Assembly (NCBI GenBank): GCA_964483665.1
Contig: CAZACP010000005.1
Location: 1,910 to 65,909 of the forward strand
Reading direction: 5' to 3'
DNA from: an uncultured Candidatus Saccharibacteria bacterium
GTDB lineage: Bacteria; Patescibacteriota; Doudnabacteria; UBA920
DNA: 64,000 nucleotides
The notes under the pieces were generated by a model that saw only the letters and a list, made by a program, of their open reading frames with translations, did not search any database and was not told the DNA's origin. The position numbers and the translations under genes are program-made. Position 1 is the stretch's first letter; the number at the start of each line of letters is the position of its first letter. This document shows positions 31,354 through 36,932 of the stretch, piece by piece.

Positions 31354-31519
31354 TTTGGGTGAATGCGAGGCGTAAATAAGCGTCTGCCAGGATGCTATAG
31401 AGGGGCGGTTCTGAGTGAAGAACTCAGGGCCGCCCAAAATTTAAGCCGTATAGGGCTTTTTATTTCAAACAAGGTTACTTAAAATATTTAAGTTTTTTGG
31501 CGCCTAGACAAAATCTAGC

Positions 31520-31900
31520 TTGTTTTTTTATGCTAAAATAATAAATATGAATAAATTTGAACAAAATCAAAATGGATTTTTAGGGGAAAAACCTATAAAT
31601 AACAACATTTCTTTAGCCAGAATTGAAAATGTGCCGTTTGAAACACTGGAGAGGCTGCATTCAACATTGCGTAAAGCAGGTTTGCTTATAAACAAAGAGC
31701 ATAACCCTAAGACCCCAATTGGGTTTTTATCCCAAAGACTGAATGCTTTAGGTATAACAACTGAGTTAGAAGAAGGAAATGCATTAAAAATTATATTTCC
31801 TACAAAAAATAATAAACTTAGTTCAAGCGTTAAAGGAACATCGGAACAAATTTACAAAGCGTATCTTCATTACGAAAATATTATGAAGAAAAGAAAATAA
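31520..31900 (+). CDS. hypothetical protein
   Basis: 126-aa ORF (possible start at MNKFEQ). Confidence 0.3.
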   Translation: MFFYAKIINMNKFEQNQNGFLGEKPINNNISLARIENVPFETLERLHSTLRKAGLLINKEHNPKTPIGFLSQRLNALGITTELEEGNALKIIFPTKNNKLSSSVKGTSEQIYKAYLHYENIMKKRK

Positions 31901-32677: not shown

Positions 32678-32714
32678 AAAAAGAGAGATGGCAGTCGTGG
32701 GGTACGACTGCCGC

Positions 32715-33369
32715 CTAAATGCGTGCTTGCCGGCAAGCTGCCGAGGGGTACACCAGCAGAGGCGTTGGGTCGCTCATAGCCTCTTGTAAATGCCAGGTGT
32801 TGTGTAAGCGTACCGCTTGAGCGTCCAATACCCACCAGTTGATGCGTGTTTGGTGCAGGTTTTGAATCGTAAAGTACACCTTTGCGAAAACTCTGCTATC
32901 CTTGACTGTAACGCGAGCTCTGGAGAGAAGGCGAAATACCGTCCACGGTTTTTTCATCTTCACAACGTCTTCAATGGAGGTAGCCAGTAGATTTGCGTCT
33001 TCTGGGGAACAGGTTACTATCTCCAAAATCCAAACTTCCTTCCAGGGTATTACTTTAGTTAGCATTGCGATCCCCTTGCTTATTTCGGTACTTTTGTTTC
33101 TTTTTGAGCAAGTTGGTCACCCATGCGGGATTTTGGTTTTCCACCAGTTCGCAACTTTTGACTCCCGAGTTTTTTCCGCTACCTTCGGGCATTCTAAGCT
33201 GTCCGTCCATCACTGCGATCAAAAGCGTGTTGCCTTCAAGAATGCTTCTGGCTGTTGGGTGTGGGGTTAGGCCAAAATTTGTTGGCCAGTTGAGGTTGTT
33301 TCTGTACGCGCCGGCTTGGGCGCGGTTGTGGAATGTAACCACCAAAACATGTGTCGCGCAAACCGACAT
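32715..33369 (-). pseudogene. two adjacent same-strand ORFs in different frames (104 aa + 116 aa) in GC-rich patch; probable frameshifted gene
   Basis: ORFs 33055..33369 and 32715..33065 overlap by 11 nt in different frames; GC ~50%. Confidence 0.3.
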
Positions 33370-33424
33370 TTAAGCCTCCTTTCTCTTGTAAACAAAAACC
33401 CCCGCATAAAGCAGGGGCAAATGT

Positions 33425-34402
33425 TTATAAAAGACCAATTTTTTGTTTAACTTCAAGCAGGGTAGCAGAGGCGACTTCGCGGGCGCTGCGCGCGCCATCG
33501 CCTAGGACTTGGGCTAAGTAGTCTGTACGCGATAGTAATTCAGCTTTCTTTTCCCTAAATTCCGCAAAGTAGTTAGTTATATCTTCCGCAAGTTTGGTTT
33601 TTAGCTCGCTGTATTGCAGGTTGCCAAATTCCTGTTTTTCTTTAAAGTATTTTATTTCCGGCGCCTTGCCAAAATGCTCTAGTAAGTACATAAGGTTTTC
33701 CGCGCCTGGGTTTTTGCCGTCTGGGGAAGAACCGGTTACGGCTTTTTTTAGTTTACGCGCTATTTCTTCGGGTGAATCATCTAACAGCAATGCTTCATCT
33801 CCGGTCTTGCTCATTTTTTTGTTTGGATCTGAAAGGGACATTATTCTTAACGGTTTCCTAAGGTAAGTTTTCGGTTCCGGAAAAGTTTGGCCGAATTTGT
33901 TGTTAAATTTTCTGGCTACAACTCTGGCTAGTTCTACATGCTGTATTTGGTCCTCGCCTACGGGAATACTGCTTGGTTTATAAAGCAATATATCGGCCGC
34001 CATTAAAGCAGGGTAGGTTAGAAGCCCGGCATTTATATTTTGTTTATGCTGTTTAGCCTTGTCTTTGTACTGAGTCATTCTTTCAAGTTCCGAAAGGGGG
34101 GTAATGCAATTAAAAATCCAGGCTAAGTAAGCATGCTCCATAACCTGGTTTTGAGCAAAAAATACGGTTTTGTTTGGGTCTATGCCGAGAGCCAAATAAC
34201 TTGCCGCAACCTCTAAGGTATTTTGAGTTAATTCTTTTGGCTCGAAAGGAGTAGTTAAAGCGTGAAGGTCTGCAATAAAATAAAAGCGTTGTAAATTTTC
34301 TGTTTCTTGAGTTTTAAGCAAGTCTTTGACCAAGCCTAAATAATTGCCAATATGTAATTTTCCGCTGGCTCTGCAGCCGGCTACGTAGGTTTCTTTATGC
34401 AT
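33425..34402 (-). CDS. trpS: tryptophan--tRNA ligase
   Basis: HIGN (GKLHIGNYLG) and KMSKT class-I motifs; start set at MHKETY. Confidence 0.8.
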   Translation of the reverse strand: MHKETYVAGCRASGKLHIGNYLGLVKDLLKTQETENLQRFYFIADLHALTTPFEPKELTQNTLEVAASYLALGIDPNKTVFFAQNQVMEHAYLAWIFNCITPLSELERMTQYKDKAKQHKQNINAGLLTYPALMAADILLYKPSSIPVGEDQIQHVELARVVARKFNNKFGQTFPEPKTYLRKPLRIMSLSDPNKKMSKTGDEALLLDDSPEEIARKLKKAVTGSSPDGKNPGAENLMYLLEHFGKAPEIKYFKEKQEFGNLQYSELKTKLAEDITNYFAEFREKKAELLSRTDYLAQVLGDGARSAREVASATLLEVKQKIGLL

Positions 34403-34436
34403 AAAATTATTATAGCAAGAATCAAAATACTTGCAA

Positions 34437-34454
34437 AACGCACGGCCGTGCGTT
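34437..34454. promoter_or_regulatory. 18-bp perfect GC-rich palindrome AACGCACGGCCGTGCGTT in divergent promoter region
   Basis: Identical core recurs at 34999-35016. Confidence 0.6.
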
Positions 34455-34472
34455 ATTATAGTAGGGTAATGT

Positions 34473-34997
34473 ATGCCTAAAAAGATAAATACATTTGTCA
34501 ATAATTTTTTATTTTTTTTGGAAGAAGCTTCTAAACTTTTACCCTTGCCTTTTGAAACTCCATATGAATGGACAAAAAAGCAAAGAGGTTTTAGCAATAA
34601 GGGTTACGCGTCTATGTTGTCTAACCTGGGCAAACAAGGGACAATAAAAGTTTTTTCAAAAAATGGCGAGAAATTTTTACAGCTTACTAATAAAGGACAG
34701 TTAGAAGTTTTACTGGCAAAAGCAGCTTTAATTGAGCAAAATAAGTGGGATGGTAAGTGGAGATTGTTTATGTTCGACATTCCTGAAGACCAGCGCGATA
34801 AGCGTGACAAGCTCAGGCGTCTTTTAAAACGAAATAATTTTATTAAGCTTCAGGCTAGTGTGTTTATTAGCCCTTATGCTTTAAACAAACAAGCAATAGA
34901 GTACTTAAAGGAAACAGGACTAGATGAATATATAAGAATATTAAGGGTAGATGCAATTGATAAAGACGAAGATTTAAAAAAGAAATTCAAACTCTAA
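34473..34997 (+). CDS. Cas2-like / PaaX-C-like fold protein, function unknown
   Basis: C-terminal WRLFMFDIPEDQRDKRDKLRRLLKRNNFIKLQASVF resembles Cas2/PaaX_C; no CRISPR array or other cas genes in window. Confidence 0.35.
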   Translation: MPKKINTFVNNFLFFLEEASKLLPLPFETPYEWTKKQRGFSNKGYASMLSNLGKQGTIKVFSKNGEKFLQLTNKGQLEVLLAKAALIEQNKWDGKWRLFMFDIPEDQRDKRDKLRRLLKRNNFIKLQASVFISPYALNKQAIEYLKETGLDEYIRILRVDAIDKDEDLKKKFKL

Positions 34998-35023
34998 AAA
35001 CGCACGGCCGTGCGTTTTTAGAG
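34994..35023. terminator. 30-bp perfect palindrome TCTAAAAACGCACGGCCGTGCGTTTTTAGA (bidirectional terminator between convergent genes)
   Basis: Stem flanked by A/T tracts on both sides. Confidence 0.55.
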
Positions 35024-35093
35024 TAAGGTGATATTCTACAAATTTGTAATATTTTTAAACTAAAACACCCCAAATTTTGGGGTGTTTTGCTGT

Positions 35094-36932
35094 CTATATT
35101 TCAATAATGACCGGCAAGACCATTGGGCGTCTTTCCGTTTTTTGGTAAAGGTATTCGCCGACTTCGTCGCGAATTACATTTCTAAGGTAAGCGTAATTAG
35201 GTTCTAATTTTTCTTTACCCTTAGTTTCCACCAACTTTCTTACTTCGTGTTTAACTTCCCTTATTAAGTCGTCATTTCCTTTCATGTAAATAAAGCCGCG
35301 GGAAATTATGTCGGGTTGGTTAACCAGCTTGCCGTCTCTTCGGTTTAAGGTAATTATAATCACAAACATACCGTCCTGCGCCATAACCTGGCGGTCTCTT
35401 ATAACCACTTCACCCACGTCGCCAACTCCCAGACCATCTATGAACACATAGCCGGAAGCTATTTTTTCGTCGGTAGTGGCTTTGGCTACGCGGTCACTGC
35501 CTACTTCCAGAATTTGGCCGTTGTCTAAAGTAAATATATTGTCGGCCGGAATGCCCATAGTTTTTGCCAATTCCGCGTGTGCCACTATCATATGGTGTTC
35601 GCCGTGGATGGGCATAAAGTATTTGGGCTTGGTCAAAGCTATCATTAGCTTTAACTCTTCCTGGTGCGCGTGGCCGGAAGTATGGATGTCTAAAGTTTTG
35701 TTGTAAATAACATGGCTGCCTAAGCGGGTCAGGTTAGAAAGCATTGCGGAAATAGCCCGTTCATTGCCCGGAATAGGGGAGGCGGAGACAATAGTGGTGT
35801 CGCCCTTTTTAATTTTCACGGTTTTGTGGTCGCCGCGCGCAATTCTGGCAAGTCCGGCCGCTTCTTCGCCTTGGGCGCCGGTAGTTAAAATAACTATTTG
35901 GTTGTCCGGGAATTTTTTAGACTGCTCGGACTTAATAATTATTTTTGGCTGGATTTTTAAGTAACCCAAAGACAAAGCAATTTCAATGTTATTGACCAAG
36001 CTTCTGCCGGTGACTATGACTTTTCTGTTGTATTTTGCGGCAGCGTCAAACACTTGCTGAATACGGGCGATGTTAGTAGAAAAGTTGGCAAAAATAATTC
36101 TACCTTTTATATCCGCAAAAGTTCGGTCTATAGTAATGCCAATCTCCCTTTCGCTAATACAGTAACCGGGCTTAACCGCGTTGGTGGAGTCGGACATTAA
36201 AAGCAATACGCCTTCTGCGCCGAATTTGGCAATTTTGTCGAATTCTGTCGGTTTGCCGTCGGCCGGAGTGTGGTCGAATTTCCAGTCAGTGGCATAAATA
36301 ATTTGCCCGACCGGAGTGGTAATGCATAAACCCATACCGTCCGGAATGCTGTGGTTAGTGCGGAAAAAGCGAATTTTAAAATTACCCAAAGGCAAAACAT
36401 CGTCTTTGGTTAAGACATTTATTTTGCTGCGGCCTAAAAGGCCAAATTCTTCCAAACGTTTTTTTATAAAGCCCGCAGTCAGCGCCATGGTATACACCGG
36501 AGGGTCGCCAAGCTTGGGTAGTATGTAAGGCACCGCGCCAATGTGGTCTAAGTGGCCGTGAGTAATAACTACGCCCCTTATGCGGCGCTTATTTTCTTCC
36601 AGCCACTTGGTGTCGGGAATAATATAGTCTATGCCCGGCATGGTGTCGTCCGGAAAAGCAAGACCCATATCTATGACTATAATGTCATCGCCAAATTCTA
36701 TGGCTGTCATATTTTCACCGACTTCTTCAACGCCACCCATTGGGATAATGCGTAAATTTTGTCTAGAAGCGGTGTATTTGCTGGTTTGGCCAAGGCCGGA
36801 AACCAAGCTGGTGGCCTTGTTAATAAGCATATCTAAACGGTCTGGTTTTTCACCTGTCTTGTTTGCAGGGGAAGAGGACGGAGTCGGCCGATTATGTTGG
36901 CCAAACCGCCTTGGATGTGTTTTTTTTATCAT
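35094..36932 (-). CDS. rnj: ribonuclease J (MBL-fold, beta-CASP) with ~60-aa low-complexity N-terminal extension
   Basis: HxHxDH motif VITHGHLDHIG, beta-CASP motifs, RNase J C-terminal domain. Confidence 0.8.
   Translation of the reverse strand: MIKKTHPRRFGQHNRPTPSSSPANKTGEKPDRLDMLINKATSLVSGLGQTSKYTASRQNLRIIPMGGVEEVGENMTAIEFGDDIIVIDMGLAFPDDTMPGIDYIIPDTKWLEENKRRIRGVVITHGHLDHIGAVPYILPKLGDPPVYTMALTAGFIKKRLEEFGLLGRSKINVLTKDDVLPLGNFKIRFFRTNHSIPDGMGLCITTPVGQIIYATDWKFDHTPADGKPTEFDKIAKFGAEGVLLLMSDSTNAVKPGYCISEREIGITIDRTFADIKGRIIFANFSTNIARIQQVFDAAAKYNRKVIVTGRSLVNNIEIALSLGYLKIQPKIIIKSEQSKKFPDNQIVILTTGAQGEEAAGLARIARGDHKTVKIKKGDTTIVSASPIPGNERAISAMLSNLTRLGSHVIYNKTLDIHTSGHAHQEELKLMIALTKPKYFMPIHGEHHMIVAHAELAKTMGIPADNIFTLDNGQILEVGSDRVAKATTDEKIASGYVFIDGLGVGDVGEVVIRDRQVMAQDGMFVIIITLNRRDGKLVNQPDIISRGFIYMKGNDDLIREVKHEVRKLVETKGKEKLEPNYAYLRNVIRDEVGEYLYQKTERRPMVLPVIIEI

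What the first reader, a model, noticed from the sequence alone, without database searches (positions are those of the whole stretch)
34437..35023. Cas2-like/PaaX-C-like gene bracketed by the same GC-rich palindrome (AACGCACGGCCGTGCGTT) at its promoter and its terminator
The 18-bp perfect palindrome sits in the divergent trpS promoter region (34437-34454). It recurs as the core of a 30-bp perfect palindrome right after the stop codon (34994-35023). A GC-rich palindrome repeated at both ends of one small gene could be a self-operator for a PaaX-like regulator. It could also be a pair of hairpin ends of a minimal mobile cassette. The encoded protein has a Cas2-like C-terminal block, and no CRISPR array or other cas gene is present.
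Basis: seen in the sequence. Interest (0 to 1): 0.55.

Follow-up and report, generated by a model that had tools for sequence, protein, structure and literature searches.

The report
Repressor gene bracketed by two operators
A small gene in an uncultured ultra-small bacterium (Patescibacteria) encodes a DNA-binding protein whose second half resembles the CRISPR protein Cas2, and the gene sits between two copies of its own probable 36-bp binding site, a layout shared by most of about 80 related genes, each with its own private site sequence.

Summary
AACGCACGGCCGTGCGTT occurs only at 34437-34454 and 34999-35016. The second copy is the centre of a 34-bp, not 30-bp, perfect palindrome (34991-35024).

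The gene (34473-34997, 174 aa) encodes a winged-helix domain plus a Cas2-like/PaaX_M domain. It lacks the PaaX C-terminal domain, and no CRISPR array is present.

Among 77-79 homologous Patescibacteria loci, about 60 carry the same layout. A 36-bp palindrome overlaps the promoter, and a second copy sits at or just after the stop codon.
- The centre, ACGGCCGT, is conserved across the family.
- Positions ±5 and ±12-18 are private to each locus but match between its two copies (75-93% against about 30% for mismatched loci).
- The A/T-rich spacer between them matches less well.
- Distal bases covary with residues of the recognition helix and wing.
- Mismatches show no G·U bias.

I read this as a mini-PaaX-type autorepressor with two double-stranded DNA operators. 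Here the 3' copy also looks like a bidirectional terminator, and the 5' copy abuts the trpS promoter.

The cassette is also dynamic. It is absent from the same rnj-trpS site in relatives, one of which keeps a solo degenerate palindrome. Another locus shows an allele swap between close genomes. A selfish or mobile role is therefore not excluded. The family is known; the architecture appears undescribed.

The parts
34428..34463 (.). Upstream (promoter) operator. This is the 36-bp site centred between 34445 and 34446. The perfect 18-bp palindrome AACGCACGGCCGTGCGTT is at 34437-34454. The right distal arm TATAGT matches the downstream copy's TAGAGT at 5 of 6 positions. The left distal arm is replaced by the -35 hexamer.
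   Evidence: The family-wide profile defines an 18-bp arm.
34431..34436 (.). TTGCAA, a self-complementary -35-like hexamer shared by the two back-to-back promoters (gene on the plus strand, trpS on the minus strand).
   Evidence: One search finds promoter-like matches on both strands that use this hexamer.
34454..34459 (+). TATTAT, a -10-like hexamer of the gene's promoter, 17 bp after TTGCAA. The 18-bp palindrome fills the spacer.
   Evidence: consensus match only. Relatives show the same overlap of operator and promoter.
34409..34414 (-). TATAAT (preceded by TG), the -10 of the divergent trpS promoter. It lies 6 nt before the trpS ATG, so the mRNA is probably leaderless. The operator edge covers its -35.
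   Evidence: The same TATAAT-N6-ATG arrangement occurs in relatives without the cassette.
34473..34997 (+). Gene for a 174-aa protein with a winged helix-turn-helix domain (helices 8-22, 31-36 and 42-55; wing 58-71) and a Cas2-like ferredoxin-fold domain (96-171). It keeps the Cas2 motif FDIPE...R...LQxSVF with invariant D102. There is no PaaX C-terminal domain.
34990..35025 (.). Downstream operator copy. The 34-bp perfect palindrome is at 34991-35024 and overlaps the stop codon. The inner stem ACGCAC/GTGCGT, flanked by A5 and T5, also makes it an intrinsic-terminator-like hairpin on both strands (RNA fold -22.4 and -23.1 kcal/mol).
35062..35088 (.). Separate hairpin AAAACACCCCAAA-T-TTTGGGGTGTTTT, 6 nt after the rnj stop. 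It is rnj's own terminator. This is context only: it shows that the palindrome is not needed to terminate rnj.
   Evidence: I9. It is conserved in L133.
33425..34402 (-). trpS (tryptophanyl-tRNA synthetase), the divergent neighbour.
35094..36932 (-). rnj (RNase J), the convergent neighbour. In relatives without the cassette, rnj is followed directly by trpS.

Best explanation
The gene encodes a truncated PaaX-type repressor: a winged-helix domain plus a Cas2-like dimerisation/DNA-contact domain, with no ligand-binding C-terminal domain. It binds double-stranded DNA at a two-fold symmetric 36-bp operator.

Inferred binding geometry. A Cas2-like dimer sits over the family-invariant centre ACGGCCGT and position ±5. 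The two winged-helix domains read the locus-specific distal arms (±12-18) across an A/T-rich spacer.

Inferred roles of the two copies.
- The copy that overlaps the gene's own -35/-10 gives negative autoregulation. In this window it also covers the -35 shared with the back-to-back trpS promoter.
- The second copy at the stop codon is a second operator for the same protein. It could act as an auxiliary site that raises local occupancy, or as a roadblock or insulator. In this window it also has the form of a bidirectional intrinsic terminator.

Each paralogue (up to at least 5 per genome) has its own private operator, and the operator co-evolves with the recognition helix.

Shown: the anatomy, the family-wide conservation, the concerted divergence of the two copies, the promoter overlap, the fold, and the covariation.

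Inferred: binding itself, repression, the domain-to-subsite assignment, and the role of the 3' copy.
For: 1. Of 79 non-redundant loci, 59 have a CGGCCG-type palindrome on both sides of the gene. In a test that ignores the core, 60 of 77 loci share more sequence between their own upstream and downstream regions than the 99th percentile of mismatched loci.

2. The position profile is bipartite.
- ±1-4 is invariant across the family.
- ±5 and ±12-18 have almost no family-wide information (about 0.1-0.3 bit; up to 0.5 bit at +18 of the upstream copy), yet the two copies of a locus agree at 75-93% (61-68% at the outermost position, ±18), against 27-35% when loci are shuffled.
- The ±6-11 spacer is A/T-rich and agrees less (58-83%).
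- There is no similarity beyond ±18, and no preference for direct over inverted orientation.

This is the pattern expected of a protein footprint, not of a simple duplication or gene conversion.

3. Palindrome mismatches show no G·U bias: 18 against 15 downstream and 29 against 21 upstream. The symmetry is therefore at the DNA level.

4. Upstream copies overlap core promoters in two arrangements. Either the -35 TTGACG is built from palindrome positions -7 to -2 with the -10 at +16, or the palindrome centre lies in the spacer. Downstream copies carry no promoters (window).

5. Among 36 independent sister pairs, changes at S47, G44 (helix 3) and K63 (wing) track changes at DNA positions -16, -17 and -14 (p = 2e-4, 1e-4, 3e-4; rank 1 of 143 residues each). 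R/K51 goes with C at -13, and D112 with C and N112 with G at -5.

6. Fold: the AlphaFold2 model has pLDDT 82. The best PDB matches are PaaX 8a39, Rv0674 3kfw and 3l09, with type II-A Cas2 for the C-terminal half.

7. Precedent: E. coli PaaX autorepresses Px and binds TGATTC-N27-GAATCA (PMC9493321).

8. Distal-arm identity between loci falls to background below about 55-60% protein identity, while the two copies of each locus stay alike.
Against: - No binding or expression data exist.
- A regulator whose only visible targets flank its own gene has no obvious physiological output. Only 64 kb of this genome could be scanned. A few relatives do have third copies nearby.
- Operator spacing shows no helical phasing, so looping gains no support.
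- The invariant Cas2 catalytic-position Asp (D102) and the FDIPE motif, which are lost in true PaaX (alignment), hint at an activity beyond DNA binding.
- Presence/absence and allele-replacement events fit a selfish element as well.
- The covariation for the core and the Cas2-like domain is weak after multiple testing and is confounded by phylogeny.
Confidence: 0.6

Rival explanations
1. Selfish or mobile single-gene cassette. The two palindromes are the element's ends, as with REP sequences around a RAYT gene. The Cas2-like domain, with its conserved Asp, nicks or cuts at the conserved ACGGCCGT core, or otherwise promotes excision, insertion or retention of the cassette. Autoregulation would be secondary.
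For: - The cassette is absent from the identical rnj-trpS junction in L134, L135, L136 and L139.
- L134 keeps one degenerate palindrome that is colinear with the product expected from recombination between the window's two copies.
- In L138 the same site holds a Y1_Tnp gene flanked by its own hairpins.
- L074 and L075 have identical flanks (CysS 96%) but a sharply bounded replacement of about 900 bp; the family proteins are 60% identical and the operators unrelated.
- There are several paralogues per genome at varied positions between housekeeping genes.
- D102 and the Cas2 motif are invariant.
Against: - Within-genome paralogues are old: at most 66% and a median of 47% identity. No recent copy-and-paste is visible.
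- Orthologues keep synteny across genomes (cysS-linked, 9 loci; others).
- In the window's lineage the cassette's divergence tracks its flanks: 92% against 87-88% in L133, and 70% against 64-85% in L095.
- The L074/L075 breakpoints lie about 150 bp outside the palindromes.
- No dispersed solo copies occur in 64 kb or in about 450 kb of related loci, apart from a few local extras.
- No copies were found in viral contigs.
- No recombinase is present.
- Deletion between two 18-36-bp repeats needs no element-encoded activity.
Confidence: 0.15
2. RNA-level element. The palindromes act as hairpins in transcripts, as terminators or stability elements. The Cas2/VapD-like domain binds or cleaves the 3' hairpin of its own mRNA, giving post-transcriptional autoregulation.
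For: - The downstream copy is transcribed and folds strongly (-22.4 kcal/mol, z = -6.7). In this window it has a U-run after the GC stem.
- In most loci the upstream neighbour is co-directional (59 of 73), so the upstream copy could terminate it.
Against: - Mismatches show no G·U enrichment on the transcribed strand.
- In this window the upstream copy lies between divergent promoters, inside the -35/-10 spacer, so it is probably not transcribed and no unit ends there.
- The family consensus has no U-tract after the full stem.
- The spacer is less conserved between copies than the distal arms, which a stem would not require.
- VapD scores 16 bits against a cut-off of 100.
Confidence: 0.08
3. 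Two unrelated functions that happen to share a sequence: an operator at the promoter and an ordinary intrinsic terminator at the 3' end. The similarity would come from an old duplication or from chance, with no binding at the 3' copy.
For: - In this window the 3' copy is a textbook bidirectional terminator shape.
- Downstream copies are more perfect palindromes than upstream ones, with 85 against 158 mismatches.
Against: - The locus-specific distal arms and ±5 stay matched between the two copies, while they diverge to background between orthologues. A terminator needs only self-complementarity, not identity with the promoter site.
- The pattern recurs in about 60 independent loci.
- The chance expectation in the window is 0.
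Confidence: 0.1

Closest known systems
PaaX, the phenylacetyl-CoA-responsive repressor of the paa operons (E. coli, Pseudomonas; PDB 8a39, 3l09; TIGR02277)
   Same: - An N-terminal winged helix followed by the Cas2-like middle domain (PF20803, E = 2.3e-24).
- The best structural match.
- Autorepression through a long palindrome with distal half-sites: TGATTC-N27-GAATCA, 39 bp, against 36 bp here.
   Different: - 174 aa against about 316 aa. The C-terminal helical domain is absent; the review read assigns phenylacetyl-CoA binding to the PaaX C-terminus.
- It scores 42 bits against the TIGR02277 cut-off of 264.55.
- No paa genes lie nearby.
- It keeps the Cas2 motif FDIPE/D102, which E. coli PaaX has lost.
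- It has an invariant GC-rich centre in the operator.
- It has a second operator at the 3' end of the gene.
- It is multi-copy, with private operators.
Cas2 (CRISPR adaptation protein, especially type II-A; TIGR01573, PF09827)
   Same: - The C-terminal half passes both curated Cas2 thresholds.
- It aligns over beta1-alpha1-beta2 with S. thermophilus and S. pyogenes Cas2, including the Asp at the end of beta1.
- Foldseek gives 25-32% identity.
- Some databases name family members 'CRISPR-associated endonuclease Cas2'.
   Different: - It is fused to a winged helix.
- No CRISPR array is present in the window. No cas1 or other cas gene appears among the called neighbours of related loci.
- It is flanked by two palindromes rather than lying next to a repeat-spacer array.
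REP sequences and their RAYT (Y1/HUH) transposase genes
   Same: - A single gene bracketed by copies of a GC-centred palindrome whose sequence goes with the gene.
- A RAYT-like gene with its own hairpins occupies the very same rnj-trpS site in relative L138.
- In unrelated bacteria the exact 18-mer is the core of repeats around Y1_Tnp-like genes (L099, L110).
   Different: - The protein family is different: no HUH/Y1 match.
- There are no dispersed genomic copies, only 2 in 64 kb.
- The upstream copy is integrated into the promoter.
Repressors with auxiliary operators flanking the regulated unit (lac O1/O2/O3, gal OE/OI) and autoregulated toxin-antitoxin or R-M controller operators
   Same: - Palindromic operator in the promoter plus a second copy some hundreds of bp away.
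- Tight negative autoregulation of a small self-contained module.
   Different: - The second operator sits precisely at the stop codon of the repressor's own gene.
- There is no helical phasing.
- No partner toxin, antitoxin or R-M gene is present.

This comparison rests on my own knowledge of those systems and was not tested here.

Membership tests
PaaX (TIGR02277 equivalog) | Whole-protein score at or above the curated cut-off (264.55 bits) | tested here: not met
   42 bits, aligned over residues 45-156 only.
PaaX (TIGR02277 equivalog) | Central Cas2-like domain (PF20803, PaaX_M) | tested here: met
   E = 2.3e-24, 85.7 bits against a cut-off of 24, residues 90-167.
PaaX (TIGR02277 equivalog) | C-terminal helical (PaaX_C) domain, to which the review read assigns phenylacetyl-CoA binding | tested here: not met
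   The protein ends at residue 174, straight after the Cas2-like domain. No PaaX_C match at E <= 1. The model has no further domain.
PaaX (TIGR02277 equivalog) | [quoted passage not shown] | tested here: met
   The AlphaFold2 model shows H8-22, H31-36, H42-55 and a beta-hairpin at 58-71. Foldseek matches PaaX, MarR-type and other winged-helix proteins.
PaaX (TIGR02277 equivalog) | Linked to paa catabolic genes | tested here: not met
   The neighbours are trpS and rnj here. In relatives they include cysS, hisS, comEC-like (Competence/DUF4131) and other genes.
PaaX (TIGR02277 equivalog) | Binds a long palindromic operator overlapping its own promoter (autorepression) | not testable with these tools
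   The sequence anatomy agrees, and there is precedent in PMC9493321. Binding itself was not measured.
Cas2 (TIGR01573 / PF09827) | Sequence score above the curated thresholds | tested here: met
   TIGR01573: 31.8 bits against 24.5. PF09827: 26.4 bits against 23.8. PADLOC Cas2 models: E = 3e-8.
Cas2 (TIGR01573 / PF09827) | Conserved Asp at the end of beta1 (metal-binding/catalytic position) | tested here: met
   D102 is invariant in 98 sequences. It aligns with the Asp of FDMP in type II-A Cas2. Catalysis was not tested.
Cas2 (TIGR01573 / PF09827) | Encoded next to cas1 and a CRISPR array | tested here: not met
   No CRISPR-like array in the 64 kb. No cas domains among the called genes around L001, L002 or L133-L139. 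A full cas search of the window was not done.
VapD (NF041506) | Score above the curated cut-off (100 bits) | tested here: not met
   16.2 bits.
REP/RAYT system | Gene encodes a Y1/HUH transposase-like protein | tested here: not met
   No PF01797 match. The domains are PaaX_M and Cas2.
REP/RAYT system | Gene flanked by copies of the palindrome | tested here: met
REP/RAYT system | Many dispersed extragenic copies of the same palindrome in the genome | tested here: inconclusive
   Only the two flanking copies occur in 64 kb. In about 450 kb of related loci there are 11 extra palindromes, mostly local third copies. A whole genome was not available.
Integron gene cassette | Promoterless ORF with a single 3' attC site, in an array next to intI | tested here: not met
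   The gene has its own promoter-like site, palindromes on both sides, no array and no integrase among its neighbours.

The most novel reading that the evidence does not exclude
The wHTH-Cas2-like genes are autonomous, palindrome-bounded selfish cassettes. The conserved Cas2-type active-site residues act on the invariant ACGGCCGT centre of the two flanking 36-bp repeats to excise, exchange or retain the cassette. This would be a repeat-gene-repeat unit built around a Cas2 homologue that recognises its own repeats. It would parallel REP/RAYT and could bear on how Cas2 came to work on palindromic CRISPR repeats.
Probability: 0.12. Interest if true: 0.9.

Novelty: new variant of a known kind. Interest (0 to 1): 0.62.

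Why it matters
1. Annotation. Some public records and JGI annotations name members of this family 'CRISPR-associated endonuclease Cas2' in genomes where no CRISPR is visible. If they are transcription factors, those labels would be misleading for surveys of CRISPR in Patescibacteria.

2. Size of the family. It is large: 885 clusters at 50% identity with E <= 1e-10, and up to at least 5 paralogues in small genomes of about 1 Mb (the genome size is my estimate, not measured). It may be a major and unrecognised class of regulators in bacteria thought to have few.

3. A natural toolkit. Each member carries its own readable operator twice, next to its own gene. The family is therefore a ready-made set of repressor-operator pairs, with first hints of a recognition code (residues 44, 47, 51 and 63 against bases -17 to -13).

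4. Evolution. The family sits between Cas2 and PaaX in sequence. It suggests a DNA-contacting role for the Cas2 fold at the centre of a palindrome.

5. Dynamics. The gain, loss and swap events at fixed chromosomal sites raise the question of whether these are regulators or selfish modules.

Tried and rejected
- Generic terminator or chance: rejected. There are only 2 copies against 0 expected, and the window's other terminator-like hairpins have different sequences.
- Other paralogues or orphan operators in the window: none.
- Known RNA family at the palindromes: none above noise.
- CRISPR array: none.
- Phage origin: no relatives in viral contigs. PHROGs gave only E = 0.014.
- Defence-system library: only the Cas2 models match.
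- Exact 18-mer in JGI metagenomes: 47 stretches, but only L095 lies next to a family gene. The rest are unrelated contexts, including REP/RAYT-like loci and a marine phage-like palindrome. For a single 18-mer in a collection of that size, I estimate the number is not far above chance plus a few repeat families.
- Suspected horizontal transfer of the cassette between the window and L001: rejected. The whole region is 98% identical.
- Helical phasing of the two operators, as a looping signature: none.
- Direct against inverted orientation of the two copies: no preference.
- RNA-hairpin selection (G·U bias): none.
- Congruence of cassette and neighbour divergence: weak or negative in two syntenic groups. 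This fits fast evolution or replacement but is not decisive.
- Literature: no paper in the held library combines PaaX with Cas2 or describes this family.
Full report
**The observation**

The 18-mer AACGCACGGCCGTGCGTT occurs exactly twice in the window, at 34437-34454 and 34999-35016. No further site appears with up to two mismatches, and none occurred in 100 shuffles. It overlaps the TAA stop and is the best zero-loop palindrome in the 64 kb.

The upstream copy lies in the 70-bp gap between divergent trpS (ATG at 34402, minus strand) and the 174-codon gene (34473-34997). It exactly fills the 17-bp spacer between TTGCAA (34431-34436) and TATTAT (34454-34459). TTGCAA is self-complementary. It also serves as the -35 of a minus-strand promoter-like site whose TG-TATAAT (34414-34409) ends 6 nt before the trpS ATG.

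Similarity between the two copies continues 3' of the 18-mer: 34435-34470 and 34997-35032 are 89% identical.

**The protein**

- Pfam gives PaaX_M, 'PaaX central Cas2-like domain' (E = 2.3e-24, residues 90-167), and Cas2 just above threshold.
- NCBIfam gives cas2 at 31.8 bits (cut-off 24.5), PaaX at 42 bits (cut-off 264.55) and VapD at 16 bits (cut-off 100).
- There is no PaaX C-terminal domain.
- An AlphaFold2 model from 98 homologues (pLDDT 82) shows a winged helix-turn-helix (helices 8-22, 31-36 and 42-55; hairpin 58-71), a linker helix, and a ferredoxin-fold domain at 96-171.
- Foldseek ranks E. coli PaaX (8a39) first, then Rv0674 and 3l09. Type II-A Cas2 matches the C-terminal half at 25-32% identity.
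- A profile of the family aligns FDIPE...R...LRxLLK..F.KLQASVF with FDMPTD...[21 protein letters not shown] of streptococcal Cas2.
- D102, at the Cas2 catalytic position, is invariant. E. coli PaaX has lost it (alignment).
- No CRISPR-like array is present in the window.

**The family and its architecture**

Homologues number more than 560 in the word-indexed search and 885 clusters at 50% identity (E <= 1e-10) in the exhaustive search. Almost all are 170-200 aa and come from Patescibacteria (Doudnabacteria, Moraniibacteriota and others). Genomes often hold several: five loci in one Doudnabacteria bin and four in two others.

I extracted the gene with its flanks from 79 non-redundant loci. In 59, a palindrome centred on CGGCCG (or on CGATCG, TGGCCA or CGGTCG in small clades) lies both upstream and at or after the stop codon.
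- The median distance from the upstream centre to the ATG is 35 nt.
- The median distance from the stop to the downstream centre is 19 nt.
- The palindrome sometimes overlaps the last codons, giving ...SRP*.
- A test that ignores the core shows that 60 of 77 loci share more sequence between their own two flanks than the 99th percentile of mismatched loci.
- Most of the remainder still show a pair by eye.

**What the site looks like**

Aligned on their centres, the sites are 36-bp palindromes with 18-bp arms.
- Positions ±1-4 (ACGGCCGT) are conserved family-wide.
- Position ±5 and positions ±12-18 carry almost no family-wide information. Even so, the two copies of the same locus agree at 75-93% (61-68% at the outermost position, ±18), against 27-35% for shuffled pairs.
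- The ±6-11 segment is A/T-rich and less alike between copies (58-83%).
- Beyond ±18 there is no similarity.
- The two copies show no preference for direct over inverted orientation.

Mismatches within palindromes show no excess of G·T over A·C, so there is no sign of selection on an RNA hairpin.

Upstream copies overlap core promoter elements in two recurrent arrangements, and downstream copies do not. In the first arrangement the -35 TTGACG is formed by palindrome positions -7 to -2, with the -10 at +16. This often leaves only 5-6 nt before the ATG, which suggests leaderless mRNAs. In the second, the palindrome centre lies within the spacer, as in the window.

**Co-evolution with the protein**

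- The N-terminal half, including helix 3, is the most variable part of the protein, and the Cas2-like domain is the most conserved.
- Distal-arm identity between different loci is about 0.65 above 70% protein identity. It falls to the background of 0.29 below about 55%, while the two copies within each locus stay about 82% alike.
- In 36 phylogenetically independent sister pairs, changes at S47, G44 and K63 coincide with changes at DNA positions -16, -17 and -14 (p = 2e-4, 1e-4 and 3e-4). Each residue is the top-ranked of 143 tested.
- Contingency tables are chemically sensible. R/K51 goes with C at -13 (G on the other strand), and Q51 with T. D112 goes with C and N112 with G at -5. K128 occurs only in the CGATCG clade.
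- The associations for the core and the Cas2-like domain are suggestive only (p about 0.01-0.03, with clade confounding).

**Interpretation**

The simplest reading is a truncated PaaX-type repressor that binds duplex DNA at a private 36-bp operator. The winged helices would sit on the distal arms and the Cas2-like dimer over the invariant centre. E. coli PaaX represses its own promoter and recognises TGATTC-N27-GAATCA, a 39-bp palindrome with distal half-sites (PMC9493321), so the logic has a precedent.

The promoter copy would give negative autoregulation. In this window its footprint (34428-34463) also covers the -35 shared with trpS.

The 3' copy is the unusual feature. It stays matched to the promoter copy in its locus-specific positions, which a mere terminator would not require, so I infer that the protein binds it too. 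In this window it also has the shape of a bidirectional intrinsic terminator: a GC stem between A5 and T5, folding at -22 to -23 kcal/mol. That is not a family-wide property.

Its role is inferred, not shown. It could be an auxiliary operator, a roadblock or insulator toward the usually co-directional downstream gene (56 of 73 loci), or both. Operator spacing shows no helical phasing.

Some relatives have third copies in the adjacent intergenic region or, in one case, 2.9 kb away (L010, L077, L050, L027). Small local regulons therefore exist.

**Dynamics**

The cassette is not fixed.
- Relatives with trpS 77-80% and rnj 83-89% identical (L134, L135, L136, L139) have rnj followed directly by trpS, with no cassette.
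- L134 retains one degenerate palindrome, AAAAACACGCGCCCGCGCGTTTTG. It aligns colinearly with the sequence obtained by recombining the window's two copies in silico.
- L133 (family protein 92%, trpS 87%) and L095 (70%, 64%; rnj 85%) keep the cassette with the same core. In this lineage, inheritance therefore looks vertical with losses.
- In L138 (trpS 82%) the same site holds a Y1-transposase (RAYT-like) gene flanked by its own hairpins.
- At a cysS-linked site, L074 and L075 are identical right up to sharp breakpoints. CysS is 96% identical, but a roughly 900-bp segment differs: the family proteins are 60% identical, the operators are unrelated, and the breakpoints lie about 150 bp outside the palindromes. 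This looks like allele replacement by flanking homology.
- Within genomes, paralogues are old (at most 66% identity). No copy was found on viral contigs.

These facts keep a selfish-cassette reading alive. They are equally expected for a repeat-flanked gene under diversifying selection.

**The 18-mer elsewhere**

The JGI metagenome scan found 47 stretches, and only L095 lies beside a family gene. The others include repeats around Y1_Tnp-like genes in unrelated bacteria (L099, L110), short arrays (L090, L109), and a 32-bp palindrome in marine phage-like contigs. The motif is therefore not a generic element of this genome. Its exact sequence has arisen independently as a REP-type repeat elsewhere.

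**Verdict**

The 'self-operator' interpretation is supported, and the 'mobile cassette' reading remains a minority possibility. The family and its domains are in the databases, but I found no description of the architecture in the held literature. That architecture is two concertedly evolving private operators bracketing each gene, with a bipartite site that has an invariant centre.

Noticed in passing
L138:1-925 (relative with trpS 82% identical): At the same rnj-trpS intergenic site, and in the same orientation as the cassette, lies a 212-aa Y1_Tnp (PF01797; HUH motif HFHLLI) gene. It is flanked on both sides by its own hairpin repeats (GAAGATGCCCATCTG...CAGATGGGCATCTTC). The site appears to be a hotspot for palindrome-flanked single-gene inserts.
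   Followed up: partly
L110:1300-3200; L099:7390-8030; L090, L092, L109, L120: In unrelated metagenome contigs the exact 18-mer is the core of multi-copy repeats. In L110, GGGACGCACGGCCGTGCGTCCC occurs six times around a 208-aa gene. In L099 the gene next to the repeats matches Y1_Tnp (E = 6e-7). The other four contigs hold short arrays of the motif. These look like REP/RAYT-type systems that have converged on the same palindrome.
   Followed up: partly
L086, L087, L093, L098, L104, L108, L111, L113, L119, L124, L126-L128, L132: About 14 marine metagenome contigs share a 32-bp perfect palindrome, TAGAATGAACGCACGGCCGTGCGTTCATTCTA. The context looks phage-like: L086 has a terminase RNaseH-like domain. 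No family gene lies nearby.
   Followed up: no
window 34400-34436 (minus strand): trpS appears to be leaderless: TG-TATAAT (34414-34409) is followed by 6 nt and then the ATG (34402). The same TATAAT-N6-ATG arrangement is kept in relatives that lack the cassette (L134-L136, L139). Many family genes also have only 5-6 nt between the -10 and the ATG.
   Followed up: partly
window 31440-31900 vs L001:650-1431: In two strains that are otherwise 98% identical, the segment between a TonB_C-like gene and the HAD hydrolase gene is non-homologous. The window has a 126-aa ORF there and L001 has a different 131-aa ORF. This is another small hypervariable slot.
   Followed up: no
window 32700-33400: This roughly 700-bp stretch between the HAD hydrolase gene and trpS has only overlapping, unconvincing ORFs on both strands. 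In L001 these are called as 116-aa and 104-aa genes without Pfam hits. It ends in terminator-like hairpins near 33352-33418. No Rfam family matches. It could be an unrecognised non-coding RNA or fast-evolving small proteins.
   Followed up: partly
L010:2783,3627,4034; L077:2813,3756,4054; L050:679,771; L027:135: Some relatives carry a third copy of their private operator. In L010, L077 and L050 it lies in the long intergenic region before a large downstream membrane-protein gene. In L027 it lies 2.9 kb upstream. This hints at small local regulons.
   Followed up: partly
L074:2668-3567 vs L075:2188-3112: Two genomes with about 90% identical flanks (CysS 96% at the protein level) differ by a sharply bounded segment of about 900 bp. 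It holds the family gene (60% identity), unrelated operators and about 150 bp of unalignable intergenic DNA on each side. This looks like an allele replacement.
   Followed up: yes
L020, L031, L056, L019, L053 and others (downstream palindrome overlapping the stop): In several loci the left half of the 3' operator is coding. The protein's C-terminal extension ...(N)SRP* is encoded by ...TCA CGG CCG TGA, so the operator core fixes the last codons.
   Followed up: partly
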